Shown here piece after piece: positions 3,400-24,217 of a stretch of DNA of 64,000 bases. How positions within the stretch are numbered: the stretch's first letter is position 1; each line of letters starts with the position of its first letter. Location of the stretch: positions 16,565 through 80,564 of the forward strand of contig JARXKK010000001.1 in NCBI GenBank assembly GCA_030278895.1, given 5' to 3'. Below the pieces are notes generated by a model. That model ran no database searches. It saw only the letters and a program-made list of their open reading frames with translations, and was not told where the DNA came from. This stretch comes from Acidobacteriota bacterium. Its GTDB lineage: Bacteria; Acidobacteriota; Thermoanaerobaculia; UBA5066. The translations under genes were made by a program, and so were the position numbers.

Positions 3400-3436
3400 C
3401 GCCGCTGTTCGGGAGGCCCGGCGCTATCCTCGCGCC

Positions 3437-4192: not shown

Positions 4193-4194
4193 AC

Positions 4195-4863: not shown

Positions 4864-4906
4864 CGCGGGCCGGGACTACAATGGCGCTCCGAATTTCGGA
4901 GGACTC

Positions 4907-6814: not shown

Positions 6815-6835
6815 AAGTCGGCGACGGTTCCATCT

Positions 6836-7479: not shown

Positions 7480-7541
7480 CGGGCACCTCCGCCGTGATGA
7501 TAGCATTGATATCACAGGCGAGCGGGACTGCGTTGCCTCCC

Positions 7542-9679: not shown

Positions 9680-9691
9680 GGGGGACGAGAG

Positions 9692-10210
9692 CTACCTCGG
9701 CTTGTCCTTGACCATCTTGAACGTCGCGCTTCCCATGGGTCTCCCGTCTTCTTTTCCCGCCGGCTCGACGAGGGACATCTCGAGCACGTAGTCCCCGGTC
9801 GGCCAGGCCTTCGAGTCGGCCTTGAAAGAGACGGCCGGCTTGTCCGGCGAGAGCGGCACTTCCTGGCGCGAGACGGGCTTACGGTCCGGGAGCGGGGCCC
9901 ACGTGACGCGCATCTTCGACCCCTGGGGCGCGTTCAGGATCTCGAACGACGTGAAGACCGCTTCTCCCACCGCGAAGACGTGCGCCTCGGCGGCGACGAC
10001 GCCGTCGGCACCCGCCGACGATCCGAGCCGGAACTTCGTGATGACCGTGCCTTTCGGCGCCTCCGCGGCCGGTGCCGGGGTCGCGACGACCGCGACCGGC
10101 TTCTCGGCTGCGCCGGTGGCCTTGGGCGCCTCGGCCTTTTTCCCGCCGCAACCCAGGGAGAGAACGCACAGAGCAACCGGAATGCAGCGCCACTTGTCCC
10201 TCATGGTCAT
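9692..10210 (-). CDS. predicted lipoprotein, first gene of the bc operon
   Basis: Signal peptide with lipobox LSLGC followed by a Pro/Ala-rich linker. It is co-directional and adjacent to the Rieske gene. Confidence 0.5.
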   Translation of the reverse strand: MTMRDKWRCIPVALCVLSLGCGGKKAEAPKATGAAEKPVAVVATPAPAAEAPKGTVITKFRLGSSAGADGVVAAEAHVFAVGEAVFTSFEILNAPQGSKMRVTWAPLPDRKPVSRQEVPLSPDKPAVSFKADSKAWPTGDYVLEMSLVEPAGKEDGRPMGSATFKMVKDKPR

Positions 10211-10260
10211 ACTCCTCGCTCCTCACCGGTATCCTACCAAGCGGAGAGCCCTCCAAGACC

Positions 10261-11154
10261 TTGGCCGCTCCGTATCGCCTCGAAACATGCGCCTGCCCGC
10301 TCTGCGGCGAGAACCCGCCGCCGAAGATCCGTGCTGCGTTCGGGCCGCACCGCGTCGTGGATTGCCCCTCCTGTTCGATGCGCTATCTCACCCCGCGCGT
10401 TCACGAGGGCGACGTGGCCCGTCTCTACGGCGCGCCGGAGTACTGGGAGAGCGGCGGCCCCGAGAGCGGATACTCCTCCTATTCCTCCATGGAGCCCCTT
10501 CTCGTCCGCACGTTCGTCCGGCGCCTCTCGCCTTTTCCGCCGCGCGGGGCCGGCGCCCGTCTCCTCGATGTCGGATGCGGCCCCGGCGCCGGCCTCGAGG
10601 CAGCGCTTTCTCTCGGTTACGAAGCGTGGGGGCTCGACGTGTCCTCCGCCGCGGTCGAGGTCGCGTCCTCTCGCCAACCCGGCCGTGTGCGCCTCGGGAC
10701 CCTCTCGGACCGCCTCTTTCCGCAGGGCTTCTTCGACGTCATCACACTCTTCGACGTGATCGAGCACATCTACGATCTCCGCCAGCTCGCGGTGGACCTC
10801 GCGTGGCACCTCGCGCCGGAGGGGCTCCTCGCGATCGCGACGCCGAACGTGGAGAGCCTCCTCGCGCGGATGACGGGGCGCCGGTGGGTGTCCTACAAGA
10901 TCCCGGAGCACGTTTCGTATTTCTCGCCGCGGACGCTCGCCGCGGCGCTCGCGCCCGGGTTCGAGATCGAGAGCGTTTCTCCGTGCGGCCAGTACGTGTC
11001 GCTGGACTTCCTCCTCGCGCGCGTCGGGGATGCCCTTCCCGCCGGCGGTGGGCTGCTGCGCGCGGCCTCGCGTCTCTTTCGCCCGGGCCGCCCCGCTCTC
11101 TACGCGAATTCCGGATCGATGTTCGTGACGGCGCGCCGGAGCCGGAATTCGTGA
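10261..11154 (+). CDS. class I SAM-dependent methyltransferase with N-terminal Zn-ribbon (CPLCG..CPSC)
   Basis: SAM motif I LLDVGCGPGAG and a downstream acidic motif FDVITLFDVIEH are present. The TTG start was chosen as the first in-frame start after the divergent lipoprotein gene; the start is uncertain. Confidence 0.65.
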   Translation: MAAPYRLETCACPLCGENPPPKIRAAFGPHRVVDCPSCSMRYLTPRVHEGDVARLYGAPEYWESGGPESGYSSYSSMEPLLVRTFVRRLSPFPPRGAGARLLDVGCGPGAGLEAALSLGYEAWGLDVSSAAVEVASSRQPGRVRLGTLSDRLFPQGFFDVITLFDVIEHIYDLRQLAVDLAWHLAPEGLLAIATPNVESLLARMTGRRWVSYKIPEHVSYFSPRTLAAALAPGFEIESVSPCGQYVSLDFLLARVGDALPAGGGLLRAASRLFRPGRPALYANSGSMFVTARRSRNS

Positions 11155-11951
11155 CGGCCGTGACGGTGCCCGACCTCTCCCTCGTCCTGCCGGTTTTCAA
11201 CGCGGCGCTTTTCGTGGAGCGAAGCCTCGCGGAAGCGGCGGAATTTCTCGGCCGGGGAAGCCTCTCGTGGGAGATCATCGCGGTCGACGACGGGAGCACG
11301 GACGACACGGCGGCCCGCCTGGCCGCCCGTTCCGGGGAGAACGTGCGGATCGTCTCCCTGCCCCGCAACCTCGGAAAGTTCGGTGCGCTGAGAGCCGGGA
11401 TGCAGGCGGGCCGGGGGCGATGCCGCGTCTTCACGGACGCCGATCTTCCGTTCGACCTCGATGCGGTTCTGTACATGGCGCGCCTCGTGAACGACCGCGG
11501 GTTTCACGTCGTCACCGGCGACCGCACGCTCATGGGTTCGGACTACCGGCCCCACGTCTCGCGGCGCCGCGACACGGCTTCGGCCGCCTTCTCGTTTCTC
11601 GTGCGCATGCTCGTGACGGGCGGGCTCTTCGACACGCAGTGCGGCCTGAAGGCATTTCGGAGCGACGTCGCCGAGGCGCTCTTCCCCCTCCTCGCGGAGA
11701 ACGGCTTCGCCGGAGACGTCGAGCTGCTCTACGTGGCGCTCAAGTACAACCTCGAGATCAAGCGCGTGCCGGTTCGCCTGCGGCGCTCGGAGCCGACGAC
11801 CGTCCATCTCGGCCTCGACTCCCTGCGCATGCTGGGGCGCATCGCCTCGCTCCGGCAGGCGTGGGACGCGGGCCGCTATCGCTCCCCCGCGCTCGAGCGG
11901 ATCGGGAGGCAGACCTACTGGACCCCGGAGGCGGAAAGGCCGGCGCCCTGA
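11151..11951 (+). CDS. family-2 glycosyltransferase (DPM1/polyprenyl-phosphate sugar synthase-like, soluble)
   Basis: GT-A motifs LSLVLPVFNAA, IAVDDGSTDDT and the DxD motif TDADL are present. The GTG start overlaps the methyltransferase stop (GTGA). Confidence 0.8.
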   Translation: MTAVTVPDLSLVLPVFNAALFVERSLAEAAEFLGRGSLSWEIIAVDDGSTDDTAARLAARSGENVRIVSLPRNLGKFGALRAGMQAGRGRCRVFTDADLPFDLDAVLYMARLVNDRGFHVVTGDRTLMGSDYRPHVSRRRDTASAAFSFLVRMLVTGGLFDTQCGLKAFRSDVAEALFPLLAENGFAGDVELLYVALKYNLEIKRVPVRLRRSEPTTVHLGLDSLRMLGRIASLRQAWDAGRYRSPALERIGRQTYWTPEAERPAP

Positions 11952-11958
11952 ACCTTGC

Positions 11959-14844
11959 CTACCACCGGAGGTAAGCGGGGCGGTCGACGAGAGGGCCCTT
12001 CTCGGACGGTCCAAAGTCTTCCGGCGTGCACGGCGGCCCAACGCCCGCGCCCGGCGGCGGCCGGAGAGCGGACGGAGGAACGATCGAGGATTTCCCTCCC
12101 GGCGGCGTCCAGGTCCATTCGAGTCTCGCGGGTTCGATCGACTCCTTGAACGTCAGCTCCACCGCGTGTTCGCCGACCGAGAGGACGACGTTCGCGTCGA
12201 CGGGCTTGTCGTGCTCTCCCTCGCTCCTGAGAACGGTCCGCCCGTCGAGCTTCAGCTCGGCCGTCCCCGAGGCCAGGAGACCCATCCCGTAAGACCCGGA
12301 GGCCGGTGCGACGAGCGCTCCCGTCCACACGGCGCCGAAGCGTTCGCCCCCGAACTGAAACTCGTCGGAGAGGTTCCACGTCGCGAGCGTGCCGTCGAGC
12401 CGCTCCTGCCGGCGCCCGCTGCGAAACGTGACGACGCCGAAAAGCCCGCCGGGGGGCGCGGCGAGAGGCCTCAGCATCGCGGAGGGGAGCGCGCGGAACG
12501 CCGCCTCTCCTCCCGTGTCCGCCTGCGCCCAGCGCGGAGCCCACCGGAGAAGGGCAGGGTCCCCTTCGCGAGTGGGCGCGCCCTCCAGCTCGACGAAGTG
12601 ATCGCCGCGCGCGAGGCAAAGGGACGCCTCCTTCCCCTTCTCGCCCGCGGAGGTCCGCAGGATCTCGCGGCCATCGATCGCGAGGCGGGCCGGACCGGGG
12701 CCGACGCGGAACGCATAGTTGCCGTAACTGGGGACGCGCATCGCCGCCGTCCACCGGAGCGTCGAGGCGGGAAGGGCCCCCGGGGCAGGATCTCCGGGGC
12801 CGACGACGCGGACCGACGTCCCGTCCGGGAGGTGAACGAGCGCGCCCTGCGTGGCCTGCCACACGGCCCGCGGCACGCGGTAGACGTCGAAAATCCATTG
12901 CCCCGGCGGAAGCGGCACGCGGCGAACGGCTCCGCCCGGATAGAACGTTTCGACGAGCTGCCGATACTCCTCCTGCCCGGGGTAAAAGAGGAATGCGAGA
13001 TCGCGGTTCGCGGGCATCGTCAGGGGAAGGTGAAAGCCCGGAGACAGGACTCCGGCCCGAAGGGAGTCGGGCGCGAGGTGGTAGACCCAGCCGGAATTGA
13101 CCATGTGGAACTGGCCGGCGAGGCTCACGACCCAGGCGTCCTGGCCCTCGCGTGCGATCGCGCCCCCCTCGATGCGCGGGTACGGCCACGGGTCGAGCTT
13201 CGCGTACTCTCCGAAATAGAAGACCAGCTCCCGCGCCGCGAGCGCGAGCGCGACCGCCGCCACGAGCCCGGCGACGGCGACGCGGCCACCGCGCCTCGTA
13301 AGCGGCGCCGCGAAACGGCGCGCCCCGTCGTCCAGTACGAGCGCGGCGAAGATCGCGAGAACGGGCACGGCCGTCGCCATGCGGTGGAGGTTCGGCGTCT
13401 CGACGGTGACGATGACGCCGACGAAGCCGGTCCAGAACCATGCCGTGAGAAGAGCGAGTCTCGGATCCCGGATGCGCCAGAGGCTCGCGAAGAGCCCGGT
13501 GACCGCCAGCGCCGAAAGGACGGGCGGCAGGATCGGCTTTCCCGTGGGCCAGAAGTAGTTGCCGTCCGGAAAGCGGTTGAATATCCCGATGGACCGCTCG
13601 ACCTGTGCGAGAAGAACGCGGGGCATCGGCCACTCGCGGTGGATGTACGGCAGGCGCGACAGGTTCGAAGGGACGAAGATGCTCGTCTCCCGGGCGCGAA
13701 CGACGAACCAGTCCGGGTTGACGTAGGCCCGATAGAGAAAGGGCGCGCCGATGACGAGCGCCGCGAGCGCTGCGAGAAGCGCGCCGAGGAAGATCTTCGC
13801 GCGGACGCCGCGGGGTGCGGTCGCGAGAAGACCGACCACGAAAAGGAGGGCGAAGACGCTCCACAGGCGTCCTGTCGGGTAGAAGTAGAGCGAGAAGCCT
13901 CCCGCGAGCCCCGAAAGGATCCAGGCCCACGCGCGCCCTCCGCGCGCCGCTTCGAGAAACAGAAGGGCGCTCGCCGTCCAGAGCGTCGCCGTGGGGCCGG
14001 CACAGGTCGTCTCCCGCGAAAACTGCAGGGCCGGCCCGAGTGTCGCGACGAGGAGTCCGGCGAGAAGCCCGGCACGGCGGCCGAAATGCCGGACGCCGAG
14101 GGTGAGAACGACGACGACCGTGACGATTCCACAGAGCGCCCCGAACGTCCGCGCCCCGGCCACGGTCGCGCCCGCCACACCCATGACCGCGGCGAGAAGC
14201 CGGAAGTAGACGATCGAGATGTGGTACCAGCCGACTCCGAAGAGAGGAGACGTGTTGTGGCCGCGCAGAATCGAGAGCGCCACGGCCGCCTGGTCGCCCT
14301 CGTCCGCGTTGATGCCGAAGGGGATCCTGTCGAGCGCCGGAAGACGGGTCGCGGCCGCGAGGCAGAGGATCAGGACCACCGCGAGCGCGAAGAGGCCGCG
14401 GCGCGGCAGGCTCCCGAGAGGGGGCGCGGCGTCCCAGCGCGGAGAGAAGGCCGTGAGCGGGCTCCCGAGAAAACCCGCCGCGGCCACGAGAAGGATGGCC
14501 GCCATCCACGGGGCCTCGCCCCCCGTTTCGTTTCCCCCGGCGTAGAGCCTCAGACACCAGACGATCGACGCGATCGCTCCCGCCAGGGCGGCCGCGAAAG
14601 CGAGGGGCCGGCCCCAGCCCTTTCGGCGCGCGGGCGGCGCGGACGCGGGGGGTGCCGGCTTCGGCCACGCGCCCCACGCGAAGATTCCCGACGCGACGAG
14701 CTCGGCGCCGATTCCTGCCCACGGGGCGCGACCCGTCCGGATCAGCTCTTCGCCGAGAAGGGCGAGGCCGACGGCGACGAGCGCCAGCGTCCGGAGCGGC
14801 GCCCAGCCGGCCTTGACCGGTTCGAGCGGCGCGTCCGGGCTCAC
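11959..14844 (-). CDS. GT-C fold glycosyltransferase, family 39/83 (PMT/ArnT-like), with C-terminal PA14-like lectin domains
   Basis: The multi-TM N-terminal half has the DE loop motif (FGINADEGDQAAV). The C-terminal ~400 aa is soluble and beta-rich, with repeated PA14-like segments. The GTG start overlaps the upstream gene stop (GTGA). Confidence 0.65.
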   Translation of the reverse strand: MSPDAPLEPVKAGWAPLRTLALVAVGLALLGEELIRTGRAPWAGIGAELVASGIFAWGAWPKPAPPASAPPARRKGWGRPLAFAAALAGAIASIVWCLRLYAGGNETGGEAPWMAAILLVAAAGFLGSPLTAFSPRWDAAPPLGSLPRRGLFALAVVLILCLAAATRLPALDRIPFGINADEGDQAAVALSILRGHNTSPLFGVGWYHISIVYFRLLAAVMGVAGATVAGARTFGALCGIVTVVVVLTLGVRHFGRRAGLLAGLLVATLGPALQFSRETTCAGPTATLWTASALLFLEAARGGRAWAWILSGLAGGFSLYFYPTGRLWSVFALLFVVGLLATAPRGVRAKIFLGALLAALAALVIGAPFLYRAYVNPDWFVVRARETSIFVPSNLSRLPYIHREWPMPRVLLAQVERSIGIFNRFPDGNYFWPTGKPILPPVLSALAVTGLFASLWRIRDPRLALLTAWFWTGFVGVIVTVETPNLHRMATAVPVLAIFAALVLDDGARRFAAPLTRRGGRVAVAGLVAAVALALAARELVFYFGEYAKLDPWPYPRIEGGAIAREGQDAWVVSLAGQFHMVNSGWVYHLAPDSLRAGVLSPGFHLPLTMPANRDLAFLFYPGQEEYRQLVETFYPGGAVRRVPLPPGQWIFDVYRVPRAVWQATQGALVHLPDGTSVRVVGPGDPAPGALPASTLRWTAAMRVPSYGNYAFRVGPGPARLAIDGREILRTSAGEKGKEASLCLARGDHFVELEGAPTREGDPALLRWAPRWAQADTGGEAAFRALPSAMLRPLAAPPGGLFGVVTFRSGRRQERLDGTLATWNLSDEFQFGGERFGAVWTGALVAPASGSYGMGLLASGTAELKLDGRTVLRSEGEHDKPVDANVVLSVGEHAVELTFKESIEPARLEWTWTPPGGKSSIVPPSALRPPPGAGVGPPCTPEDFGPSEKGPLVDRPAYLRW

Positions 14845-17800
14845 GGCGCCTCGCCGGGAGTCAGCTCGTGGATCGCCGACGTGGATTCGTCGAGAACGAA
14901 GAGCGCCTGCGGCGCGTGCGAAAAGCGATACGGCGACGCGAGATCCTTGCGGCTGAGGCCGCTCGCCGCATGCGCCGGCATCAACCGCGTGCCCTGAACG
15001 TCGACGATGATCGGCGCCTCGTCGGGATTGTAGGGGACCAGAAGCCGCGGTCCGTCGAACGCGGCGCCGCGGAGATATTCGGGATGAGGCTCGCGCGCGA
15101 AAGCCAGCCTGAATCGGCCTTCGGGCACGAGAACGACCGGATCGCCGCCGAAGCGGAACAGATGCACGCCGCCGGCTTGCTCGACCACCGCGAGCCTGTC
15201 CCCCTCGAACGTCACGGCGATCGGCAGCTCGAACGTCCCACGCATCTCCCCTTCCGGTCCCCAGACGCTCTCGACCCGCCCGTCCGCGCGGAAGATGTGG
15301 AGAAAACTCCCGGTCGGAACGGCGAGGCGACCGCCCGGAAGACGCGCCGCGTGGGAGCCCGTGAGGCCGCCCGGAAGCTCCCAGCGCGCCTGGAGCGCGA
15401 GGTCCTTGTCGTAGCGCTCGAAAACCCGGAGCGAAAAAGCGGTGCATCCGCCGTCGGGTTCGACGAGAAGCGTCCCCGTGCTCGCGTCGCGCGGCAGGTC
15501 CGCGCGCACGCGCTTCGTCTCGATCCCGTCGCGCCCGAATCGGCGGATCTCCCACGTCTGGTCGCGGAGGAAAAGCGCGTAGAGGCGCCCCTCCCGGTCC
15601 ACGCCGAAATCCGAGATCCGGTGCGGCGGGCGCAGAACCTCCCGCGCGCGAGGCCAGCCCGCGAACGAGACCGGCTCGACGCCTCGCGTCTCGGGAACGA
15701 GGGCAAGAGCGGGCGCCGTCAATGCAGGCGCGAACGTTCCGTCGGCGCCCGAGACCGCGAGCAGCGGCCGGGTCCGCGAGGCGCAGCCGGCAGGCCCCGA
15801 GATCTCGAAGGGAAAGATGCCCGGGAGAAGCGGCCGCTCCTCTTCGCCATCCCAGCGCGCGGCACCGGCCGCGATGCGGGCGCCCGGACAGGGTGGGTCG
15901 AGGAGGAGCCGGTACCAGCCCGGCTTCGGTACCAGGAAGCCGCCGCGCAGGCCGGCCGGCGACATCTCGGGTGTCGTGGCGCGATGGAGCGCTTCGGGTT
16001 TCACCTCGAAGGTCATGAGCCGCTCCACCATGAGAGGCCAGTCGCGCTCCAGGACACGCGCCGCGGGGTCGATCGCGGGAAGAACGGACATGGCCAGCCG
16101 GGCGGACGGCACGTCGCGAAAGAGATACGCGACACGTGACACGCGAAGGGCGCTGCGCCGGGCCTCGATCTCGGCAGCCGCCATCGTCAGGGCGTAGACC
16201 TCCTCGCGGAAATCGCACGCGGGCCGCAGGAGCGACAGCAATTCGTCGCCCCGGTCGACGAACTGCATGCACGGCCCGGCCGGCGACAGCAGCCGGTCGA
16301 GAAAACCGAACTCGAGCGTCTTGCCGTGCCGGTAGAAGAGGTTGTGCAGGACGACGTCGTTCTTCTCGACGAGCGGGCGGGCGAAACGGATCTGCTCGTC
16401 CCGCACGATCGGAAGGGCGGGCAGCAGCAGATTCGAGGCGAGGCCCGAGGCCGAGATGCCCGCGAGAGCCAGGCCCGCGCTCGCCATCGCGAGGTTGCCC
16501 GCGAGGCGGCCGCCCGCCTCCCGCGCGAGACGAACCCAGGCCGTCACGACGAGAGCGGCGAGGAGGAGGATCGGAACGAAGATGACCGAGAGCCGCCGCG
16601 CGTCGGGCTCATCGGAAAGGACCCCGGGCAGGAGGCCGAGGCCGAGCCAGAAGAGAACGAGCGCGGATCGTCGCTCCGCAATCTGGCCGAGGAGATAGCC
16701 GAGGCCGACGGCCGCGAGGATCGTCAGCCCCACGCAAACCATCGGATCGCGCCCCGGCGCGACCGTGAAGCGCTCGTACCAGTGCGTCGCATATGCCTGG
16801 TGGGACGTCAGAGCCACGCCCACGCTCGCGAGGTTCCCGGCGACGCGCGCGGCCTGTCCCCGCAGGACTTCCACGAGAGGCGCGGTCGAGGAAAACCCCG
16901 CCCGCCACGCGGGCTCACCGCGCACCCGCGCCGGGTCGACGAACCCTCTTTCGCCCCCCGCGGCGGCGACGGCGATCGATACGCTCACGCCCCAGATCGC
17001 GATGCCGAGCAGCAGAACCGGCAGCGCGACGAGCGCACGGCGCGCGACTCCTTTCGCGAACAGAACGGCGTGCCCCGCGAGAAGAGCCGGGTACACGAAG
17101 AGGACGTGACCGGCCGTGTAAAAGAAGCGGCAGAGCGGTGTCAGGCAGGCGGCCAGCAGGACCGGCGCGATTCCGAAGCGAGCGATCATCGACAGGCCGA
17201 CGTGGGCGAAGAGGAGGCCGAGGGCGGCAACCGGCGCGAAGACCGACACCTCGCTTCGCGACCAGAAAAGCTGCTCGGGCGCGCAGACGAAAAGGAGAGT
17301 CGCCCCGAACGCCGGGAGCGCGCCCCCCGAGAGGCGTCGGACGAGACCCCAGAAAAGGGGCACGGCGGCAAGACCCCAGAGGAGAGCCGTGACGCGCGTC
17401 GCATAGAGCGACACGCCGAGCGCGGCGAACACGAGCCGGTTCGTCAGCGGCGTCGCGAGGCCGTTGCTCGTCCCGACGAACTCCGTCGCCGTGAACTGAC
17501 GGAGGCCGTGCGCGGTCCGGCTCTGCGTTTGCACGGAGATCATCTCCTCGTCGAAGTTCGACGGAAGCTGGTTGATGGCCCAGGCCCGCGTGAGGAGGGC
17601 AAGGAGAAACAGCGCGAGGAGACCCAGGGACTCGGTCCAGCCCGGCAGCGCCCCGCTCCGGGAGGGCTCCGGGGAGAGATCCGGAGGAAGCGCGGGAAAC
17701 CCCGGCGTCTTCGCGAGCGGCTGGATCCGTGCGGCGGCGGCCGCCGTCAGCACCGCGGCCGCGAAGAGAAGGAAGCCGGCGGGCCGCACGTCGCGGAGAA

Positions 17801-18137: not shown

Positions 18138-18140
18138 GCG

Positions 18141-19340: not shown

Positions 19341-19363
19341 TTGCTGCCACTATCTTAAGCGAA

Positions 19364-22300
19364 ATGGCTCCGCCACCACCCGCGGGACCTGCCTCTTCAC
19401 CGCGGGCGTTTCGCGGAATCCTGCTTCTGCTCGCCCTCTTCGCCCTCGTCGTCCGGGTGATCGGGCTCGATTTCGACCAGAACCACTTCTTCCACCCGGA
19501 CGAGCGCGCGATCGGCGACGCGATCCTCAAGCTCTCGTTCCAGCCCCTTCAGCTGAACCCCCACTTCTTCGCCTATGGCTCGCTTCCGTTCTACCTGACC
19601 AGGGGGCTCTCGTCCCTTCTCGCCACGATCTCGGGGCGCGACTGGTTCATTTCCTACGACGGCGTCATCCACGTCGGGCGATTCCTGTCGGCCCTCGCGG
19701 GCGCGCTCACCGTCGCGCTCCTCGCCGCCGTGGGACGCCGCCTTTACGGGCCGAAGACAGGCCTCCTCGCGGGGCTCCTCCTCGCGCTCGCCGTTCTCCA
19801 CGTCCAGACCTCGCACTTCGCCGCGACGGACGTGACGCTCACCCTTTTCGTCCTCCTCGCGCTCGCCGCCTCGGGCCGTCTCGCAAGGCATGGGCGTTTC
19901 GGCGACGCTCTTCTCGCCGGCGCGCTCACGGGCTTCGCAGTCGCGACGAAGGCGAGCGCGGCTCCCCTCGTTCTCCCCCTCGCCGTCGGGGTCTTCTTCG
20001 CCTGCCGGCCGGCGCGTGCCTGGGGGCGCGGGCTGCTGCTTCTCGCGGCCGGGGGATCCGCCGCTTTGGTCGCGTTCTTCGTCGGCGAACCCTACGCGTT
20101 TCTGGACTTCCACACGTTCTGGCGTTCTCTCTCCGAACAGGGCGCGATGGTCCGCCACGCGGGAATGCTGCCGTACACGAACCAGTACGTCGGCGTCCCG
20201 AACTTCCTTTACGAGGCGAAGGAAATCGTGCTCTGGGGCCTCGGTCCGCTCCTCGGCGTCGCCGCGCTGTGGGCTTCGGCCCGGCGCCTGGTTCGGGTCC
20301 GGAAGCTCTCGGACGTCGAGTGGGTCTTCGCCTCTTTCTTCGTGCCCTACGTCCTCCTGACGTGCACGTTCGAGGTGAAGTTCCCGCGCTATCTTCTGCC
20401 CGTCTACCCGCTTCTTGTCCTGTGGGCGGCGGCCTGGCTCACGGAGAAGGCCGAGCGCGGGCGGGCGGGACGCATCCTCCGGGCCGCGGTCGTGGGCGGC
20501 TCCGCCGTGTGGCTTCTCGCGTTCGCCGGGATCTACACGCGTCCGCACAGCTCGGTCACGGCGTCCCGGTGGTTCCACGACGCCGTCCCCGACGGCGCCC
20601 GGGTCCTGGAGCAGGACTGGGACGAGGGGTTCCCGTTCACGTTTCCCGACCGCTCGGCCGAGCGTTACAGGATCGTCACGTTCGGCTTCTACGAGCCCGA
20701 CTCGCCCGAGAAGATGGCGAAGCTCGCCCGGGAGCTGGCCGGCGCGGACTGGGTCGTCCTGCAGACGAAGCGTCTTTACGGCGCCGTCACGCGCGCCCCG
20801 GAGAAGTTCCCGCTCACGAACCGCGCGTTCCGCCTCCTCTTCGCGGGCGATCTCGGCTACACGCTGGTCCGGGAAGTCGCGTCACGCCCGTCTCTCTTCG
20901 GAATCCAGGTGCCCGACGAGCTCGCCGACGAGTCGTTCACCGTCTACGACCACCCGAAGGTCGTTTTCTTCCAGAACACGAAGCGCCTCTCTGCCGAGGC
21001 GCTCGAAAGCGCCCTCCTGTCGGCGACGCCGTCCAAGACCCTGACGCGGAACGACCTCCTTCTGGCGCACCCGGCGTCCACTGCGGCGACCGCCACGACG
21101 GCCACGGCCGGCGTCACGGGCCCCGCGGGCGACGCCGCGGAGCCGGGCCCCGGAGTCCCCACTCTCAGGCTCTCCCTCCTGGCGCTCCTTCTCTTCGCTG
21201 CATGGCTCGAAGCGGTGGGGCGGGCGGGCGCGGGAATCCTCGCCGTCCTGCTCCCCGCTCGGCCGGGTCGCGACGCGCTCGGGCGCGTCACCGGCGTCCT
21301 TCTCTTCGCGTTCGTGCCGTGGCTCGTCGTCGCGTGGCACTGGGCGCCGTTCACGCGGGGCCTCCTCGTCGTCACGACGGCCGCGCTCCTCGCCGCCGGC
21401 TTCCTGTGCGCGCGCCGCGCGCGCGTCACCGGAACCGCGACGCCCGCGCCCGAGCGACGGAAGACGGCGCTCGTCTTCTGGGCCACGTTCTTTTTCTTTC
21501 TCGCCGTCCGCGCCGCGAACCCCGAGATCTATTCGGGCGAGAAGACGATGGACTTCTCGTTCCTGAACACGCTCCTCAGGTCCACGGAGCTTCCGCCACC
21601 CGAGCCGTGGCTCGCCGGCACGACGCTGTCGTACACCTACTTCGGCCACTTCCTCGCCGCTGCGGCCGGGAAGCTTCTCGGCATCCACCCGGGCCTGCTC
21701 TTCAACCTCGCGATCGCGATGACGGCCGCGCTCGCGGCCTCGGCGATCTTCGCGGCCGGCGCCGCGCTCGGCGGACGCCTGCGGACGGGCGCCGTCGCGG
21801 TGCTGCTCGCGCTCTATCTCGCGCCGCCCTCCGGCCCCTGGACCGCGTTCGATTTCCACTGGCGCCAGGCGGGCCGTCCGCTCGACTGGCACTACTTCTG
21901 GGCGACTTCACGCGTCATCGCCCCGAACGGGATCAGCGAGTACTTCTTCTGGAGCTTCCTCTTCGCGGACCTCCACGCGCACGTCCTCGCGCTGCCTTTC
22001 ACCGCCGCCTTCGTCGCCGTCCTCCTTCTCTTCGTGACGCGCGATCGGCTCGCTTCTTTCGCTCCCCGTCATGGGGTGGCGCTCGTCGGGCTCGCAGGCC
22101 TCTTCTTCGCCGCGCTTCAGATCACGAACGGCTGGTCGACACCCGTCTACGCGTGCCTTCTCCTCTTTCTTCCCGGCGTCCTCTGGCTCGGAACCCGGGC
22201 GCCCTCCTTCACCGCATCGGCCCGGGCGCTCGCGAGCGGCGTCCTCCTGCCGGCCGCCGGCGTCGCGCTTTCGGCCGCGCTCCTCGCGCGCCCGTTCTGG

Positions 22301-24217
22301 GCGCACTTCTCGCCGCCGCCCCGAAACTGGGGCCGCGAGGTAGGCCCGTGGGCGCGGCCGTGGGACTTCTTCAACGTCTGGGCCTTCTTCGTCGCACTCC
22401 TCCTCCCGTTTGCTTTCTACGCGTGGAAGACGGGCGCCTCGCCTCGCGGAAAGGCCGCGCGCGCGTTCCTGATTCTCGCGGCGATTGCCCTCCCCCTGTC
22501 CGTCGTGTCCTTCTCTTTCCATCCGCCTCGGCTCGCGGAAGTGCCTTCTTCGGCGTTCTTCACCGCCATCGCCTTTCTCGTCGCGCTCGGTGCCGCGCTC
22601 CGGCGCGCGACCGACGACCGCCTTCGCCCCGCCCTCGCTCTCGTCGCCTTCGGCTTCGCGATCCTCACGGGGTGTGAGGTCGTCTACGTGTGGGACCGGA
22701 TGAACACGATCTTCAAGTTCCACTTCGAGACCTGGCTCCTCTTCTCCCTCGCGGGAGCCCTCGCGTGGGAGACGTTCCGGGCTTCGAAGAACTTCCTTTG
22801 GCGCGTCGCGATCGTCCTGACGGGCTGCGCCGCCCTGTACACGACCGTCACCGCGTTCACCGGTTTCCTGAGGCTCGACCGGGGCGGATGGCCCAAGGGC
22901 ACGCTCGACGGCACGGCGTATCTCGAGAAGCAGAGCCCCGGCGACCGCGGCGCCATCGAGTGGATCAACGCGAACGTCCGCGGACTGCCCGTGCTCCTCG
23001 AGGCGCAGGGCCCCGCGTACCAGGACTTCACGCGTCTCTCCATGAACACCGGGCTTCCCACCGTCCTCGGCTGGGACTACCACGTCTACCAGCGCGGCCA
23101 CGCGCAGGCGGAGGTCGACCGCCGCAAGCTGGATGTCGTCCTGGCTTACACCTCGGCCGACGAGACCGTCGTCAAACGGATCCTCTCGCGCACCCACGTC
23201 GCGCTCGTCGCCGTCGGAAATCTCGAGCGCAAGACGTACGCCGGCGCGAATCTCGCGCGTTTCGAGGCGTGGACGGATCTCCTGACGCCCGTCTACCGCA
23301 ATCCCGAGTTCGTCCTCTTCGCCGTGAATGGCGTTTTTTCCGCCGGCGCCGCCGTGGCTGCCGTGCAGGTGGAAGAACTCCGCGCCCCGCCGAGGCAGGC
23401 GGAAGCCGCCCCACCTCCGGCCGACGCTCCGGGCCGCCTCCGCCAGCCTCGCGGCGCCGCATCCGATCGCACCGGCCGCGTCTGGGTCGCCGACTTCGGG
23501 AACCAGCGGATCCAGCTCTTCGCCGCGGACGGATCCCCCGGGCTCGCGCTCGGCACGCGCGGCAGCGGGCCCATGCAGTTCAACGACCCGTGCGGGGTCG
23601 CGGTTGGTCCGTCAGGCCTCGTCTTCGTGGCCGATACGTGGAATGCCCGCGTCCAGGTCTTCGACGAGAAGGGAGTCTGGCAGCGCGAGTGGGGCGACGC
23701 CTTCTTCGGACCGCGCGGCATCGCCGTGGATTCCGGCGGCTCGGTCTTCGTCGCGGACACGGGAAACGGCCGCATCGTCCGCTTCGACGCCTTCGGGCAT
23801 CGGGAAGCCGAGTGGGGCCGCGCGGACGGCGCCGGAAAGCTCGCCGACCCGCAGGGCGTCGTCGCCGCCAAAGACGGCAAGATCTACGTGGCCGACAACG
23901 GAAACGGAAGGGTCGCCGTCTTCGACAGGAACGGAGGATTCGTGCGCGCCTTCGACGTCGCGGGCTGGAAACGCGCCTCGCTCTCCGAGCCCTACCTCGC
24001 GCTGGACGCGGGCGGCCTTCTCTGGGTGTCCGTGCCGCTCCTCGACGAGGTGCGCGGCTACACCCCGGAGGGACGCCTCGTGACGACGCTGCGCGGAAAG
24101 GACCTCCCGGAGGGCCAGCGGTTCGAGAAGCCCTCCGGGCTCGCCCTGCTGCCGAAGAGACGCCTCTTCGTGTCGGACCTCGAGGGAGGGTTCGCGGTCG
24201 TCCCTCTTCCGCGCTGA
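19364..24217 (+). CDS. giant (1617 aa) membrane glycosyltransferase: GT39/PMT-like N-domain, DUF2298 (YYY-type) central domain and C-terminal NHL-repeat beta-propeller
   Basis: The DE motif is HFFHPDERAIGD. A central segment (EKTMDFSFLNTLLRSTELPPPEPWLAGTTLSYTYFGHF) is paralogous to the stand-alone DUF2298 gene at 29412. The C-terminus has at least six NHL-type repeats (VWVADFGNQRIQLF, VFVADTWNARVQVF, VFVADTGNGRIVRF, IYVADNGNGRVAVF ...). The ATG start was chosen downstream of the divergent SGNH gene. Confidence 0.8.
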   Translation: MAPPPPAGPASSPRAFRGILLLLALFALVVRVIGLDFDQNHFFHPDERAIGDAILKLSFQPLQLNPHFFAYGSLPFYLTRGLSSLLATISGRDWFISYDGVIHVGRFLSALAGALTVALLAAVGRRLYGPKTGLLAGLLLALAVLHVQTSHFAATDVTLTLFVLLALAASGRLARHGRFGDALLAGALTGFAVATKASAAPLVLPLAVGVFFACRPARAWGRGLLLLAAGGSAALVAFFVGEPYAFLDFHTFWRSLSEQGAMVRHAGMLPYTNQYVGVPNFLYEAKEIVLWGLGPLLGVAALWASARRLVRVRKLSDVEWVFASFFVPYVLLTCTFEVKFPRYLLPVYPLLVLWAAAWLTEKAERGRAGRILRAAVVGGSAVWLLAFAGIYTRPHSSVTASRWFHDAVPDGARVLEQDWDEGFPFTFPDRSAERYRIVTFGFYEPDSPEKMAKLARELAGADWVVLQTKRLYGAVTRAPEKFPLTNRAFRLLFAGDLGYTLVREVASRPSLFGIQVPDELADESFTVYDHPKVVFFQNTKRLSAEALESALLSATPSKTLTRNDLLLAHPASTAATATTATAGVTGPAGDAAEPGPGVPTLRLSLLALLLFAAWLEAVGRAGAGILAVLLPARPGRDALGRVTGVLLFAFVPWLVVAWHWAPFTRGLLVVTTAALLAAGFLCARRARVTGTATPAPERRKTALVFWATFFFFLAVRAANPEIYSGEKTMDFSFLNTLLRSTELPPPEPWLAGTTLSYTYFGHFLAAAAGKLLGIHPGLLFNLAIAMTAALAASAIFAAGAALGGRLRTGAVAVLLALYLAPPSGPWTAFDFHWRQAGRPLDWHYFWATSRVIAPNGISEYFFWSFLFADLHAHVLALPFTAAFVAVLLLFVTRDRLASFAPRHGVALVGLAGLFFAALQITNGWSTPVYACLLLFLPGVLWLGTRAPSFTASARALASGVLLPAAGVALSAALLARPFWAHFSPPPRNWGREVGPWARPWDFFNVWAFFVALLLPFAFYAWKTGASPRGKAARAFLILAAIALPLSVVSFSFHPPRLAEVPSSAFFTAIAFLVALGAALRRATDDRLRPALALVAFGFAILTGCEVVYVWDRMNTIFKFHFETWLLFSLAGALAWETFRASKNFLWRVAIVLTGCAALYTTVTAFTGFLRLDRGGWPKGTLDGTAYLEKQSPGDRGAIEWINANVRGLPVLLEAQGPAYQDFTRLSMNTGLPTVLGWDYHVYQRGHAQAEVDRRKLDVVLAYTSADETVVKRILSRTHVALVAVGNLERKTYAGANLARFEAWTDLLTPVYRNPEFVLFAVNGVFSAGAAVAAVQVEELRAPPRQAEAAPPPADAPGRLRQPRGAASDRTGRVWVADFGNQRIQLFAADGSPGLALGTRGSGPMQFNDPCGVAVGPSGLVFVADTWNARVQVFDEKGVWQREWGDAFFGPRGIAVDSGGSVFVADTGNGRIVRFDAFGHREAEWGRADGAGKLADPQGVVAAKDGKIYVADNGNGRVAVFDRNGGFVRAFDVAGWKRASLSEPYLALDAGGLLWVSVPLLDEVRGYTPEGRLVTTLRGKDLPEGQRFEKPSGLALLPKRRLFVSDLEGGFAVVPLPR

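What the first reader, a model, noticed from the sequence alone, without database searches (positions are those of the whole stretch)
10261..24217. Glycosylation island with three giant GT-C (GT39 PMT/ArnT-like) paralogs fused to lectin/beta-propeller domains, plus GT2, methyltransferase and SGNH hydrolase
Within about 14 kb the window encodes the following:
- a Zn-ribbon SAM methyltransferase;
- a soluble DPM1-like GT2 (the expected polyprenyl-phosphate-sugar donor synthase);
- a membrane SGNH hydrolase;
- three very large polytopic GT-C proteins of 961, 1098 and 1617 aa, each with the first-loop DE motif of PMT/ArnT enzymes.

Each GT-C protein carries a different large extracytoplasmic C-terminal module: PA14-like repeats, an unassigned beta-rich propeller, and a DUF2298 domain plus six or more NHL repeats. 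GT-C enzymes fused to carbohydrate-binding or propeller domains would couple lipid-linked sugar transfer to substrate recognition on the outer face of the membrane. Four of the genes are linked by GTGA/ATGA stop-start overlaps, consistent with coupled expression.

Inference: this is a periplasmic protein- or lipid-glycosylation pathway (O-mannosylation-like or lipoglycan synthesis) whose acceptor specificity is set by the fused beta-propellers. The acceptor is unknown.
Basis: partly seen in the sequence, partly recalled or inferred. Interest (0 to 1): 0.7.

Follow-up and report, generated by a model that had tools for sequence, protein, structure and literature searches.

The report
Multi-GT-C envelope glycosylation gene cluster
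An uncultured Acidobacteriota bacterium carries a conserved gene cluster of three very large membrane glycosyltransferases fused to sugar-binding or propeller domains; it probably builds or decorates a cell-envelope glycan outside the inner membrane, a known type of pathway in an unstudied form.

Summary
Window 10261-24217 encodes a Zn-ribbon SAM methyltransferase, a GT2, a membrane-anchored SGNH hydrolase and three GT-C proteins of exactly 961, 1098 and 1617 aa. Each GT-C has a conserved Asp/Glu motif in its first loop.

Corrections:
- The "unassigned" propeller of the 1098-aa protein is a divergent six-bladed NHL propeller.
- DUF2298 is a second polytopic membrane module, not an extracytoplasmic domain.
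- The three GT-Cs are only remote relatives, not recent paralogs.

The cluster recurs in Thermoanaerobaculia, other Acidobacteriota and Binatia MAGs, and the fusions are intact there, so this is not misassembly. The locus is larger than reported. A small lipoprotein (9695-10210) travels with it. A second operon (29412-35114) encodes stand-alone DUF2298, an Agl23-like protein and a strong GtrB homolog.

Relatives carry polyprenyl-phosphate ribose/arabinose genes (UbiA-type, DprE1/E2-like) beside the same GT-Cs. This points to an Emb/Aft- or Gtr-like periplasmic glycan assembly more than to protein O-mannosylation.

Donor, acceptor and the role of DUF2298 are not determined. Verdict: real, uncharacterised, a new variant of a known kind, of moderate interest.

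The parts
9695..10210 (-). 172-aa predicted lipoprotein. It has a signal peptide with an LSLG|C lipobox, an Ala/Pro/Lys/Thr-rich linker (residues 23-54) and a beta-rich domain of about 115 aa. It is a candidate acceptor or accessory factor. It lies just outside the reported coordinates.
   Evidence: Translation. No Pfam hit. Homologs sit inside or beside the GT-C cluster in L002-L007, L009 (two copies), L011, L019, L022 and L023 at 30-96% identity, even where gene order is shuffled. The Rieske and cyt b genes that follow it in the window do not co-travel. The lipobox Cys21 is invariant.
10261..11154 (+). Cytoplasmic class I SAM-dependent methyltransferase (297 aa, TTG start) with an N-terminal CxxC...CxxC Zn ribbon. 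Substrate unknown.
   Evidence: Methyltransf_23, E 1.7e-23. CPLC at 12-15 and CPSC at 35-38. No TM segment. Only generic PDB relatives, some of them sugar-nucleotide methyltransferases. Paired with a GT2 in L002-L006, L019/L020 and L021.
11151..11951 (+). GT2a: 266-aa family-2 glycosyltransferase without C-terminal TM helices. It is translationally coupled to the MTase by a GTGA overlap. Possible polyprenyl-phosphate sugar synthase (weak evidence).
   Evidence: Glycos_transf_2, E 3.4e-21. The best NCBIfam and PDB hits are all polyprenyl-phosphate sugar synthases (PpgS, Dol-P-hexose transferase, ArnC, GtrB), but they fall far below family cutoffs, at E about 1e-13 to 2e-10. Overlap shown.
11959..14844 (-). 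GT-C 'A' (961 aa): a PMT_2-type membrane glycosyltransferase module (about residues 1-545) plus a periplasmic tail containing two PA14 domains.
   Evidence: PMT_2 40.6 bits (cutoff 26.1) and PA14 49.7 bits. Two PA14 stretches. D181 and E182 invariant in 11 homologs down to 26% identity. hhalign to the PMT_2 module of C gives probability 97%. PMT_2+PA14 proteins of 924-965 aa recur in L019, L021, L022 and L023.
14841..18137 (-). GT-C 'B' (1098 aa). Modules in order: an N-terminal extension of about four TM helices, a GT-C core (about 167-572), an alpha/beta plus beta-sandwich linker region (about 578-800) and a six-bladed divergent NHL propeller (about 823-1093).
18141..19340 (-). Membrane-anchored SGNH/GDSL hydrolase (399 aa) with one N-terminal TM helix and a catalytic domain predicted to be periplasmic.
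   Evidence: Lipase_GDSL_2 33.8 bits (cutoff 32.9). GDS at 131-133, ND at 199-200, DHCH at 368-371. TM at 11-40, preceded by RRR. It is the best-conserved cluster protein in distant loci, at 59-65% identity.
19364..24217 (+). GT-C 'C' (1617 aa). Modules in order: a PMT_2-type module (residues 1 to about 392), a soluble domain (393-594), a DUF2298/chlor_Arch_YYY polytopic membrane module with its own soluble domain (about 606-1321), a disordered linker and a six-bladed NHL propeller (1355-1617).
24242..25288 (+). Alpha/beta hydrolase (348 aa) directly downstream of GT-C 'C'. Doubtful cluster member.
   Evidence: Abhydrolase_1. A 58%-identical gene follows the GT-C 'C' ortholog in L007 and L023, but it is absent at that position in the closest relatives L002-L006.
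29412..31502 (+). Stand-alone DUF2298/chlor_Arch_YYY membrane protein (696 aa), first gene of a second operon outside the finding.
   Evidence: DUF2298, E 1.3e-67. TIGR03662 363 bits. 32% identical to GT-C 'C' residues 621-1292. ATGA overlap with the next gene.
31499..33184 (+). Agl23-like PMT_2 membrane protein (561 aa).
   Evidence: PMT_2. TIGR03663 'flippase activity-associated protein Agl23', 242 bits, cutoff 126. Archaeal Agl23 flips lipid-linked glycans in vitro (PMC11182771).
33181..34152 (+). GT2b: GtrB-type polyprenyl-phosphate glycosyltransferase (323 aa) with C-terminal TM helices.
   Evidence: E 2.4e-90 over the full length to Synechocystis GtrB (5EKP), and E 3e-44 to ArnC. TM segments at about 236-298. 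GtrB-like GT2 genes sit immediately after the GT-C 'B' ortholog in L009, L010, L012, L016 and L021.
34149..35114 (+). Fatty-acid-desaturase/hydroxylase-family membrane protein (321 aa), coupled to GT2b by an ATGA overlap. Role unknown.
   Evidence: FA_desaturase, E 2.6e-28. Only weak NCBIfam hits. Overlap shown.

Best explanation
This is a conserved chromosomal locus of a Thermoanaerobaculia (Acidobacteriota) bacterium for glycosylation outside the cytoplasmic membrane, using lipid-linked sugar donors.

Proposed steps:
1. On the cytoplasmic face, GT2 enzymes load a sugar onto polyprenyl phosphate. GT2b (GtrB-type) does this with good support. GT2a may do so too, together with its coupled methyltransferase.
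2. The lipid-linked sugar is flipped. No classical flippase lies in the cluster. The neighbouring Agl23-like protein is a candidate.
3. In the periplasm, a battery of PMT_2-type GT-C transferases (A, B and the N-terminal module of C) transfers the sugar(s) to an acceptor, using the conserved Asp/Glu in their first periplasmic loop.
4. Each transferase carries its own periplasmic non-catalytic module: two PA14 domains, or a six-bladed NHL propeller. By analogy with the CBMs of EmbC, AftD and GT136, these hold or select the acceptor.
5. The membrane-anchored SGNH enzyme edits O-acyl groups on the product.

Two observations favour stepwise assembly or decoration of an envelope glycan or lipoglycan (Emb/Aft-like or Gtr-like) over single-step protein O-mannosylation. 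Several different GT-Cs always occur together. Relatives place polyprenyl-phosphate ribose/arabinose genes beside them. The co-travelling small lipoprotein may be the anchor/acceptor or an accessory factor.

Shown:
- Gene content.
- GT-C fold of B.
- PMT_2, PA14, NHL, DUF2298 and SGNH identities.
- Motif conservation.
- Conservation of the fusions and of the cluster.

Inferred:
- Donor type.
- Periplasmic orientation.
- Role of the fused modules.
- Acceptor.
- Catalytic role of DUF2298.
For: - Domain assignments.
- Conserved first-loop acidic residues.
- Positive-inside analysis places these loops and the C-terminal modules outside. The closest bacterial structural relative of the propellers is the extracellular PknD sensor.
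- Fusions are intact in orthologs down to about 30% identity.
- The cluster (GT-C C | SGNH, B, A, lipoprotein) is kept in L001-L011, L019, L022 and L023 despite shuffled order.
- A GtrB-like GT2 sits immediately downstream of the B ortholog in five distant loci.
- GT2b is a GtrB homolog at E 2e-90.
- A UbiA-type decaprenyl-phosphate phosphoribosyltransferase-like gene (230.5 bits, cutoff 234) lies beside the cluster in L007, L011, L022 and L023. DprE1/E2-like genes (489 bits against cutoff 500; 203 against 250) lie beside it in L009/L019.
- Precedent for GT-C plus binding-module fusions and for three-component systems: PMC11127046.
- A DUF2298-PMT2/PA14-PMT2 neighbourhood is also listed for a Chloroflexi genome in PMC8756737.
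Against: - No donor or acceptor is identified and no experiment exists for any member.
- GT2a matches polyprenyl-phosphate sugar synthases only weakly and lacks TM helices.
- No GtrA, MATE or Wzx-type flippase is seen in the finding.
- The 64-kb window itself contains no UbiA or DprE homolog, so the pentofuranose hint comes from relatives only.
- Part of the synteny (L007, L011, L022, L023) is the same chromosomal region in related genomes. There, co-occurrence partly reflects shared ancestry rather than selection.
- Topology rests on hydropathy, the positive-inside rule and fold analogy, not on a dedicated predictor.
- DUF2298 could not be shown to have a GT-C fold.
- NHL propellers more often bind proteins, RNA or small molecules than glycans.
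Confidence: 0.6

Rival explanations
1. Protein O-glycosylation system (PMT/TMTC/TMEM260-like). The GT-Cs transfer a sugar from polyprenyl-phosphate sugar onto Ser/Thr of secreted proteins or lipoproteins. The NHL propellers and PA14 domains recognise protein substrates. The co-travelling lipoprotein, with its Ala/Pro/Thr-rich linker, would be a dedicated acceptor.
For: - PMT_2 assignments. Best structural matches of B include yeast Pmt2 and Pmt4. Some GT-C 'C' homologs also hit PF02366 PMT.
- A conserved lipoprotein with a low-complexity linker accompanies the cluster.
- GT-C enzymes fused to protein-recognition repeats are known. TMEM260 is a protein-specific O-mannosyltransferase (PMC10214176, listed).
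- NHL propellers commonly bind macromolecules.
Against: - There is no MIR or TPR domain, and no PF02366 hit in the window proteins.
- Three to six different GT-Cs per locus, plus PA14 (a carbohydrate-binding type of domain), fit a multi-step glycan better.
- Polyprenyl-phosphate pentofuranose genes occur in relatives.
- The lipoprotein linker is variable and poor in Ser/Thr in several homologs, and absent in L009/L019.
Confidence: 0.2
2. Not all of the GT-C-like modules are transferases. One or more (the Agl23-like protein, the PMT_2 module of C, or DUF2298) act as lipid-linked-sugar flippases/scramblases or as polymerase/translocase components. GT-C 'C' would then be a fused flippase-transferase (or transferase-polymerase) machine. 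This is compatible with the main explanation but changes the mechanism.
For: - PMT2b in the neighbouring operon is a TIGR03663/Agl23 family member (242 bits, cutoff 126).
- Purified Haloarcula Agl23 translocates lipid-linked oligosaccharide in proteoliposomes and rescues yeast rft1 deletion (PMC11182771).
- No classical flippase gene is seen in the cluster.
- PMT_2 and DUF2298 occur both fused (GT-C 'C') and as adjacent genes, and split in L019/L021.
- DUF2298 shows no sequence or profile link to PMT_2 modules or to any solved GT-C.
Against: - A, B and the PMT_2 module of C do not hit TIGR03663 at E<=0.01.
- They keep the Asp/Glu first-loop motif typical of catalytic GT-Cs.
- The DUF2298 module has its own invariant acidic motif in an analogous loop, which suits catalysis as well as it suits transport.
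Confidence: 0.15
3. ArnT-like modification of lipid A or LPS core (or of another envelope lipid) with a single sugar, to alter charge or resistance. The extra domains would have regulatory roles.
For: PMT_2 covers ArnT-like enzymes. The best PDB sequence hits of GT2a include ArnC. The organism is a diderm phylum member.
Against: - No arnA/B/D/E/F-like genes are found in the window.
- Three different GT-Cs with large binding modules are unnecessary for a single lipid A modification.
- The NCBIfam ArnC match is far below cutoff (47 bits against 529).
Confidence: 0.05

Closest known systems
Mycobacterial arabinan/mannan GT-C machinery (EmbA/B/C, AftA-D, with UbiA-type DPPR synthase and DprE1/DprE2)
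   Same: Several different GT-C transferases are encoded together. Each is large and carries periplasmic carbohydrate-binding-type modules. All depend on polyprenyl-phosphate monosaccharide donors. Relatives of this locus carry near-cutoff homologs of the phosphoribosyltransferase, DprE1 and DprE2 beside the same GT-Cs. CBM roles in EmbC and AftD are summarised in PMC11127046.
   Different: The membrane modules here are PMT_2-type, not the Emb/Aft families. The fused modules are PA14 and NHL propellers rather than Emb-type CBMs. The phylum is Acidobacteriota. No UbiA or DprE genes lie within this 64-kb window. The product is unknown.
Three-component extracytoplasmic glycosylation systems (GtrA/GtrB/GtrC; GT136 pentofuranose systems, PMC11127046)
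   Same: The logic is polyprenyl-phosphate sugar synthase plus GT-C transferase. GT2b is a strong GtrB homolog, and GtrB-like genes directly follow the GT-C 'B' ortholog in five loci. In GT136 ORF12 the GT-C carries a C-terminal binding module.
   Different: There is no GtrA or MATE flippase in the cluster. There are three or four GT-C-type modules instead of one. A methyltransferase, an SGNH hydrolase and a lipoprotein also belong to the set.
Protein O-mannosyltransferases (GT39 PMT; TMTC1-4; TMEM260)
   Same: GT-C fold with a first-loop Asp-Glu motif. Yeast Pmt2 and Pmt4 are among the best structural matches of B. The concept of a GT-C fused to an acceptor-recognition domain is shared.
   Different: There are no MIR or TPR domains. 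The window proteins hit PMT_2 (PF13231) but not PMT (PF02366). No polyprenyl-phosphate mannose synthase has been identified.
Archaeal Agl22/Agl23 module and the TIGR03662 (chlor_Arch_YYY/DUF2298) - TIGR03663 gene pair
   Same: The second operon in the window encodes TIGR03662, TIGR03663 and a GT2 synthase as coupled genes. GT-C 'C' fuses a PMT_2-type module to a TIGR03662 module.
   Different: The PMT_2 module of GT-C 'C' is not itself a TIGR03663 hit. Agl23 is described as flippase-associated. DUF2298 has no assigned function: the term appears in only two indexed papers, both incidental.
M. tuberculosis PknD extracellular NHL sensor propeller
   Different: It is attached to a kinase, not to a glycosyltransferase.

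Membership tests
GT-C glycosyltransferase superfamily (PMT_2 / GT39-GT83-like) | Polytopic membrane domain with the GT-C fold or a family HMM match | tested here: met
GT-C glycosyltransferase superfamily (PMT_2 / GT39-GT83-like) | Conserved acidic residue(s) in the first extracytoplasmic loop after the first core TM helix | tested here: met
   A: D181 and E182 invariant. B: E198 invariant, D196 at least 90% conserved. C: D46-E47 in HPDER near-invariant.
GT-C glycosyltransferase superfamily (PMT_2 / GT39-GT83-like) | Acidic loop and C-terminal domain face the periplasm | tested here: inconclusive
   Hydropathy plus the positive-inside rule on AF2 helices fits an outside location, as does fold analogy. 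No dedicated topology predictor was available.
GT-C glycosyltransferase superfamily (PMT_2 / GT39-GT83-like) | Uses a polyprenyl-phosphate-linked sugar donor | not testable with these tools
   Only genomic association with GT2/GtrB-like and, in relatives, UbiA/DprE-like genes.
GT39 protein O-mannosyltransferase (PMT sensu stricto) | PF02366 PMT match and a luminal MIR domain | tested here: not met
   No PF02366 or MIR hit in any of the three window proteins. Some GT-C 'C' homologs carry a precomputed PF02366 hit.
ArnT / GT83 lipid A aminoarabinose system | Co-occurrence with arnA/B/C/D/E/F-type genes; ArnC-level GT2 | tested here: not met
   GT2a scores 47 bits against the ArnC model cutoff of 529. 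No other arn-like genes are in the window.
DUF2298 / TIGR03662 chlor_Arch_YYY | HMM match above the curated cutoff | tested here: met
   GT-C 'C' residues 606-1321: TIGR03662 393 bits (cutoff 300), PF10060 264 bits. The stand-alone copy at 29412-31502 scores 363 bits.
DUF2298 as a GT-C fold family | Structural or profile similarity of the DUF2298 membrane module to known GT-C enzymes | tested here: inconclusive
   - hhalign against the three PMT_2 modules: probability <1%.
- Profile against PDB sequences and Pfam: nothing.
- Suggestive only: a TM helix followed by two short helices and then another TM helix, with invariant GEKxMDF.
Agl23 / TIGR03663 flippase-associated family | HMM match above the curated cutoff | tested here: not met
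   A, B and C give no TIGR03663 hit at E<=0.01. The neighbouring gene at 31499-33184 does match (242 bits, cutoff 126).
Three-component (Gtr-type) extracytoplasmic glycosylation system | Polyprenyl-phosphate sugar synthase (GtrB-type GT2) | tested here: inconclusive
   GT2a inside the finding is weak (E about 2e-10, no TM helices). GT2b, 9 kb away, is a clear GtrB homolog (E 2.4e-90). GtrB-like genes abut the B ortholog in L009, L010, L012, L016 and L021.
Three-component (Gtr-type) extracytoplasmic glycosylation system | Dedicated flippase (GtrA, MATE or similar) | tested here: not met
   No such family appears among the Pfam hits of window genes or in L019-L023. The Agl23-like protein is only a candidate.
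NHL-repeat six-bladed beta-propeller | NHL HMM match and a six-bladed propeller fold | tested here: met
PA14 domain | HMM match above cutoff | tested here: met
   PF07691 49.7-53.1 bits (cutoff 24), two stretches in the tail of A.
SGNH/GDSL hydrolase | HMM match and the catalytic blocks GDS, ND and DxxH | tested here: met
   Lipase_GDSL_2 33.8 bits against cutoff 32.9. GDS at 131-133, ND at 199-200, DHCH at 368-371.

The most novel reading that the evidence does not exclude
GT-C 'C' is a natural fusion of two different membrane modules that handle lipid-linked sugars, a PMT_2-type transferase and a DUF2298/YYY module, plus an NHL propeller. On this reading DUF2298 is a previously unrecognised glycosyltransferase, polymerase or translocase family. 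It works obligatorily with PMT_2/Agl23-type partners in bacteria and archaea. Together with GT-Cs A and B, the SGNH enzyme and the co-travelling lipoprotein, it would build an arabinan/mannan-like lipoglycan or a glycosylated lipoprotein in Acidobacteriota and Binatia. That would be an Emb/Aft-style envelope polymer pathway outside the Actinobacteria.
Probability: 0.3. Interest if true: 0.65.

Novelty: new variant of a known kind. Interest (0 to 1): 0.45.

Why it matters
Acidobacteriota and Binatia are abundant in soils and sediments but mostly uncultured, and their envelope glycans are essentially unknown. This locus gives a concrete, conserved and testable gene set for an envelope glycosylation pathway in them.

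It links the uncharacterised DUF2298/chlor_Arch_YYY family to PMT_2/Agl23-type proteins and GtrB-type synthases. DUF2298 is widespread, including in archaea and Chloroflexi, but appears only incidentally in two indexed papers. The link rests on both gene fusion and gene adjacency.

It adds NHL propellers and PA14 domains to the list of acceptor-side modules fused to GT-C enzymes. It also suggests that polyprenyl-phosphate pentofuranose chemistry, known from mycobacteria, is combined with PMT_2-type transferases in other phyla.

The underlying principle (lipid-linked donor, GT-C transferase, fused binding module) is already established, so the advance would be incremental unless DUF2298 turns out to have a new activity.

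Tried and rejected
1. Pairwise BLASTP among the three GT-Cs gave no hits, so 'paralogs' holds only at superfamily level. Local hhalign was needed to see the relationships.
2. I tried five ways to show that DUF2298 has a GT-C fold, and all were uninformative:
   - hhalign against the PMT_2 modules.
   - DUF2298-only profile against PDB sequences at E<=10.
   - Per-member Pfam scan at E<=10.
   - Foldseek on the same model.
3. Sequence searches of A and of the TM parts of C against PDB found no solved membrane relatives.
4. Literature searches for DUF2298, PF10060, TIGR03662, 'GT-C + NHL' and 'GT-C + PA14' found nothing relevant. The exceptions were a gene-table entry for a Chloroflexi genome and the Agl23 work. 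Lu et al. 2020 on Agl22/Agl23 is not held.
5. The promoter and terminator scan was uninformative in this 70% GC sequence.
6. Rfam found nothing in the window. ARAGORN found only one tRNA-Leu (55009-55093), far from the cluster.
7. The hydrophobic stretch 1315-1336 of GT-C 'C' looked like a TM helix that would put the propeller on the cytoplasmic side. I rejected this because the AF2 model shows a beta strand plus a disordered linker there.
8. The idea that the lipoprotein belongs to the adjacent Rieske/cytochrome b operon was rejected. Those genes are present only in the closest relatives, whereas the lipoprotein follows the GT-C genes.
9. Horizontal-transfer 'island' status was rejected, given uniform GC and conserved housekeeping flanks.
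10. A search for UbiA or DprE1/E2 homologs within the window found none.

Full report
**1. What is in the sequence**

The window has about 70% GC, so mechanical ORF lists are full of spurious frames. I called genes from third-position GC and translation. The reported interval contains six genes:
- A methyltransferase, 10261-11154 (+), TTG start.
- A GT2, 11151-11951 (+).
- GT-C 'A', 11959-14844 (-), 961 aa.
- GT-C 'B', 14841-18137 (-), 1098 aa.
- An SGNH hydrolase, 18141-19340 (-), 399 aa.
- GT-C 'C', 19364-24217 (+), 1617 aa.

There are two GTGA stop-start overlaps, MTase/GT2 and B/A. SGNH and B are 3 nt apart. GT2 and A converge 7 nt apart. The SGNH and C start codons diverge only 23 nt apart.

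**2. Domain identities**

- The MTase is Methyltransf_23 with a CPLC...CPSC Zn ribbon and no TM segment.
- The GT2 is Glycos_transf_2.
- A is PMT_2 plus two PA14 stretches.
- C is PMT_2 (104-237), then DUF2298 (PF10060 264 bits; TIGR03662 393 bits, above cutoff), then NHL repeats.
- SGNH only just passes the Pfam cutoff. However, it shows the GDS, ND and DxxH blocks and an N-terminal TM anchor preceded by RRR.
- B has no Pfam or NCBIfam hit of its own.

**3. GT-C 'B'**

B has 49 full-length homologs down to 31% identity. Fifteen of the 41 aligned members hit PMT_2. A profile of the family hits NHL propellers in the PDB at E 6e-22.

So B consists of these parts:
- An N-terminal extension of about four helices.
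- A GT-C core.
- A linker domain.
- A six-bladed divergent NHL propeller.

An exhaustive phmmer search of 1.84 billion representatives finds only 154 hits, 67 of them at E<=1e-30. This is a small, distinctive family.

**4. Catalytic motifs**

- A: D181-E182 (INADEGD) is invariant in 11 homologs down to 26% identity.
- B: E198 is invariant and D196 is at least 90% conserved (NFDEEM).
- C: D46-E47 (HPDER) is near-invariant.

Each motif directly follows the first core TM helix. The loop preceding that helix is Arg-rich. This fits an N-in, loop-out topology like other GT-Cs. It is an inference from hydropathy, the positive-inside rule and fold analogy, not from a dedicated predictor.

**5. GT-C 'C' and DUF2298**

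It is not. The AF2 model of residues 590-1617 (pLDDT 89.1) shows, in order:
- A bundle of more than a dozen long hydrophobic helices (604-1169).
- A soluble alpha/beta domain.
- A disordered linker.

A hydrophobic stretch at 1315-1336 looked like a TM helix in my crude scan. In the model it is a beta strand plus linker. The propeller therefore sits on the same side as the DUF2298 soluble domain.

The DUF2298 module has its own invariant acidic motif, GEKxMDF (E726, K727, D730). It lies in the first loop after an Arg-rich cytoplasmic turn and is followed by two short helices and another TM helix. This arrangement resembles GT-C EL1.

I could not show a GT-C fold for DUF2298:
- hhalign to the PMT_2 modules was negative.
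- Profile-versus-PDB and Pfam scans were negative.
- Both structure searches returned only propeller hits.

This question stays open.

**6. The three GT-Cs are not close paralogs**

BLASTP finds no similarity among them. Profile comparison relates the PMT_2 modules only remotely: C versus A probability 97%, B versus A 70%, B versus C 38%.

**7. Origin and conservation**

Related loci come from MAGs of Thermoanaerobaculia and other Acidobacteriota, from Candidatus Binatia, and from one labelled Desulfurellales.
- In L001-L006 and L008 (68-95% identity) the arrangement C | SGNH-B-A | GT2-MTase is identical.
- In L007, L009, L011, L019, L022 and L023 (37-50% identity for B) the same proteins are still clustered, in changed order.
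- In L021 (31% identity) a B-like gene is translationally coupled to a GT2 and a Methyltransf_23 gene. It is surrounded by genes for PMT_2+DUF2298+NHL, PMT_2+NHL, PMT_2+PA14 and stand-alone DUF2298 proteins.
- At least 637 database clusters match GT-C 'C' at E<=1e-10, and essentially all of the 120 listed share its architecture. They are annotated only as 'DUF2298/YYY domain-containing' or 'GT39 family'.

Module shuffling also occurs: PMT_2+NHL without DUF2298, and stand-alone DUF2298, in L019 and L021.

A published gene table for a Chloroflexi genome also lists DUF2298 next to PMT2/PA14 and PMT2 genes (PMC8756737).

**8. The locus is larger than reported**

(a) *A lipoprotein.* Divergent from the MTase, at 9695-10210 (-), lies a 172-aa predicted lipoprotein. 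It has a lipobox LSLG|C, an Ala/Pro/Lys/Thr-rich linker and a beta-rich domain of about 115 aa, with no Pfam hit. Homologs at 30-96% identity sit in or beside the GT-C cluster in every reasonably complete acidobacterial locus. This includes between two PMT_2+PA14 genes in L009/L019 and next to SGNH in L009. In the window it is followed by Rieske and cytochrome b/c genes, but those are present only in the closest relatives. The lipoprotein is therefore tied to the GT-C genes, not to the bc complex.

(b) *A second operon.* At 29412-35114 (+), four genes are joined by ATGA overlaps:
- Stand-alone DUF2298/TIGR03662 (363 bits).
- A PMT_2 protein that is a TIGR03663 'flippase activity-associated protein Agl23' member (242 bits, cutoff 126).
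- GT2b, a full-length GtrB homolog with TM helices (E 2.4e-90 to 5EKP).
- A fatty-acid-desaturase-family protein.

So PMT_2-type and DUF2298 modules occur fused in GT-C 'C' and as neighbours here. This is a Rosetta-stone type of link.

**9. Donor side**

GT2a inside the finding has its best hits among polyprenyl-phosphate sugar synthases (PpgS, Dol-P-hexose transferase, ArnC, GtrB). All of them fall far below family cutoffs, and GT2a lacks TM helices. 'DPM1-like' is therefore only weakly supported.

Stronger evidence comes from elsewhere:
- GT2b is GtrB-like.
- GtrB-like GT2 genes directly follow the B ortholog in L009, L010, L012, L016 and L021.
- In L007, L011, L022 and L023, the position that holds Rieske/cyt b + MTase + GT2a in the window holds a UbiA-family gene instead. 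It scores 230.5 bits on the decaprenyl-phosphate phosphoribosyltransferase model (cutoff 234).
- L009/L019 carry DprE1-like (489 bits, cutoff 500) and DprE2-like (203 bits, cutoff 250) genes.

Relatives thus place the polyprenyl-phosphate ribose/arabinose pathway beside the same GT-C set. The window itself has none of these genes, so its donor may differ. The alternative donor cassettes next to a constant GT-C core suggest donor swapping.

**10. Flippase question and a rival mechanism**

No GtrA, MATE or Wzx-type gene is seen. Haloarcula Agl23 (TIGR03663) is described as a putative hexose-P-dolichol flippase. The purified protein translocates a lipid-linked oligosaccharide in proteoliposomes and rescues yeast rft1 deletion (PMC11182771).

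The Agl23-like gene at 31499-33184 is therefore a candidate flippase. More generally, some GT-C-like modules here may move lipid-linked sugars rather than transfer them. A, B and C themselves do not hit TIGR03663, and they keep catalytic-type acidic motifs.

**11. Most likely mechanism**

Polyprenyl-phosphate sugars are made in the cytoplasm, flipped, and then used in the periplasm by several PMT_2-type GT-Cs. The PA14 and NHL modules hold or select the acceptor, as shown for the CBMs of EmbC, AftD and GT136 ORF12 (PMC11127046). A periplasmic SGNH enzyme edits acyl groups.

Three features favour a multi-step envelope glycan or lipoglycan over single-step protein O-mannosylation:
- The multiplicity of GT-Cs.
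- The PA14 domains.
- The pentofuranose genes in relatives.

The lipoprotein keeps the protein-glycosylation rival alive. My confidence is about 0.9 that these are GT-C enzymes. It is about 0.6 for the pathway as described. The acceptor is unknown.

**12. Other points**

Between the window and L022, the flanking reductase is 76% identical. SGNH is 62%, C 52%, A 45%, B 39% and the lipoprotein 31%. The periplasmic machinery diverges much faster than its neighbours, as surface-glycan loci often do.

Some of the synteny (L007, L011, L022, L023) is the same chromosomal region. It shares the LiaF-HK-LytTR-reductase flank with window 1447-6814. Co-occurrence there partly reflects ancestry. L009/L019, L012 and L021 provide more independent contexts.

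**13. Novelty and score**

The principle (lipid-linked donor, GT-C transferase, fused binding module, clustered synthase) is well known. The new elements are:
- NHL propellers and PA14 domains on PMT_2-type GT-Cs.
- The PMT_2-DUF2298-NHL triple fusion.
- The conserved combination with SGNH, the MTase and a lipoprotein in uncultured Acidobacteriota and Binatia.

No member has been characterised. DUF2298 appears only incidentally in two indexed papers. I rate this a new variant of a known kind, with interest 0.45.

Noticed in passing
window 9695-10210 (-): A 172-aa predicted lipoprotein (lipobox LSLG|C, Ala/Pro-rich linker, beta-rich domain, no Pfam hit), divergent from the MTase. Its homologs follow the GT-C cluster in distant loci (L007, L009 x2, L011, L019, L022, L023), whereas the Rieske and cyt b genes next to it in the window do not. 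Candidate acceptor or accessory factor.
   Followed up: partly
window 29412-35114 (+): A second operon of four genes joined by ATGA overlaps: stand-alone DUF2298/TIGR03662, an Agl23-like TIGR03663 PMT_2 protein, a strong GtrB homolog (E 2e-90) and a fatty-acid-desaturase-family protein. A divergent amine-oxidase/phytoene-desaturase-like gene lies upstream (28028-29356). This is the unfused counterpart of GT-C 'C' and the likely donor-synthesis/flipping module.
   Followed up: partly
L007 20279-21127; L011 15867-16754; L022 16008-16898; L023 19797-20684; L019 1469-3600; L009 1-1577: Relatives carry a UbiA-type gene just under the cutoff of the decaprenyl-phosphate phosphoribosyltransferase model. 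L009/L019 carry DprE1/DprE2-like genes beside the same GT-C set. In the window and its closest relatives, Rieske/cytochrome b-c genes plus MTase+GT2a occupy that position instead. This suggests alternative donor cassettes.
   Followed up: partly
window 19341-19363: The start codons of the divergent SGNH (GTG 19340) and GT-C 'C' (ATG 19364) genes are only 23 nt apart, in a locally AT-richer stretch (CACTATCTTAAGCGAA). This leaves no room for two conventional promoters with leaders, so the promoters may overlap or the transcripts may be leaderless.
   Followed up: no
window 4736-24217 versus L022/L011/L023: There is a strong rate gradient across the locus. Against L022, the flanking NAD_binding_4 reductase is 76% identical, SGNH 62%, GT-C 'C' 52%, 'A' 45%, 'B' 39% and the lipoprotein 31%. 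The periplasmic machinery evolves much faster than its neighbours.
   Followed up: partly
window 7246-9691 (-): A Rieske protein (9182-9691) and a fused cytochrome b/b6 + cytochrome c protein (ORF up to 7246-9300) sit between the conserved reductase flank and the lipoprotein. They are present only in the closest relatives (L002-L006), so they look like an insertion or replacement at the site where more distant relatives have the UbiA gene.
   Followed up: partly
window 24242-25288 (+): An alpha/beta hydrolase lies directly after GT-C 'C'. A 58%-identical gene follows the ortholog in L007 and L023, but it is missing at that position in the nearest relatives L002-L006. Cluster membership is unclear.
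   Followed up: partly
window 1447-6814 (+): A LiaF-like membrane protein, a LytS-type histidine kinase, a LytTR response regulator and a 692-aa thioester-reductase-like (NAD_binding_4) protein form a conserved flank of the cluster, also seen in L011, L022 and L023. This is a possible envelope-stress regulator next to the glycosylation genes. No functional link was tested.
   Followed up: no
window 57431-59173 (-) and 60877-61752 (-): A 580-aa GT4-family glycosyltransferase and a further class I methyltransferase lie about 35 kb from the cluster. Their relation to it is unknown.
   Followed up: no
PMC8756737 appendix (Chloroflexi bacterium 44-23, OJX39484-OJX39487): A published gene table lists DUF2298 adjacent to PMT2/PA14 and PMT2 genes in a Chloroflexi genome. 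The DUF2298-PMT_2(-PA14) association therefore extends to another phylum.
   Followed up: no
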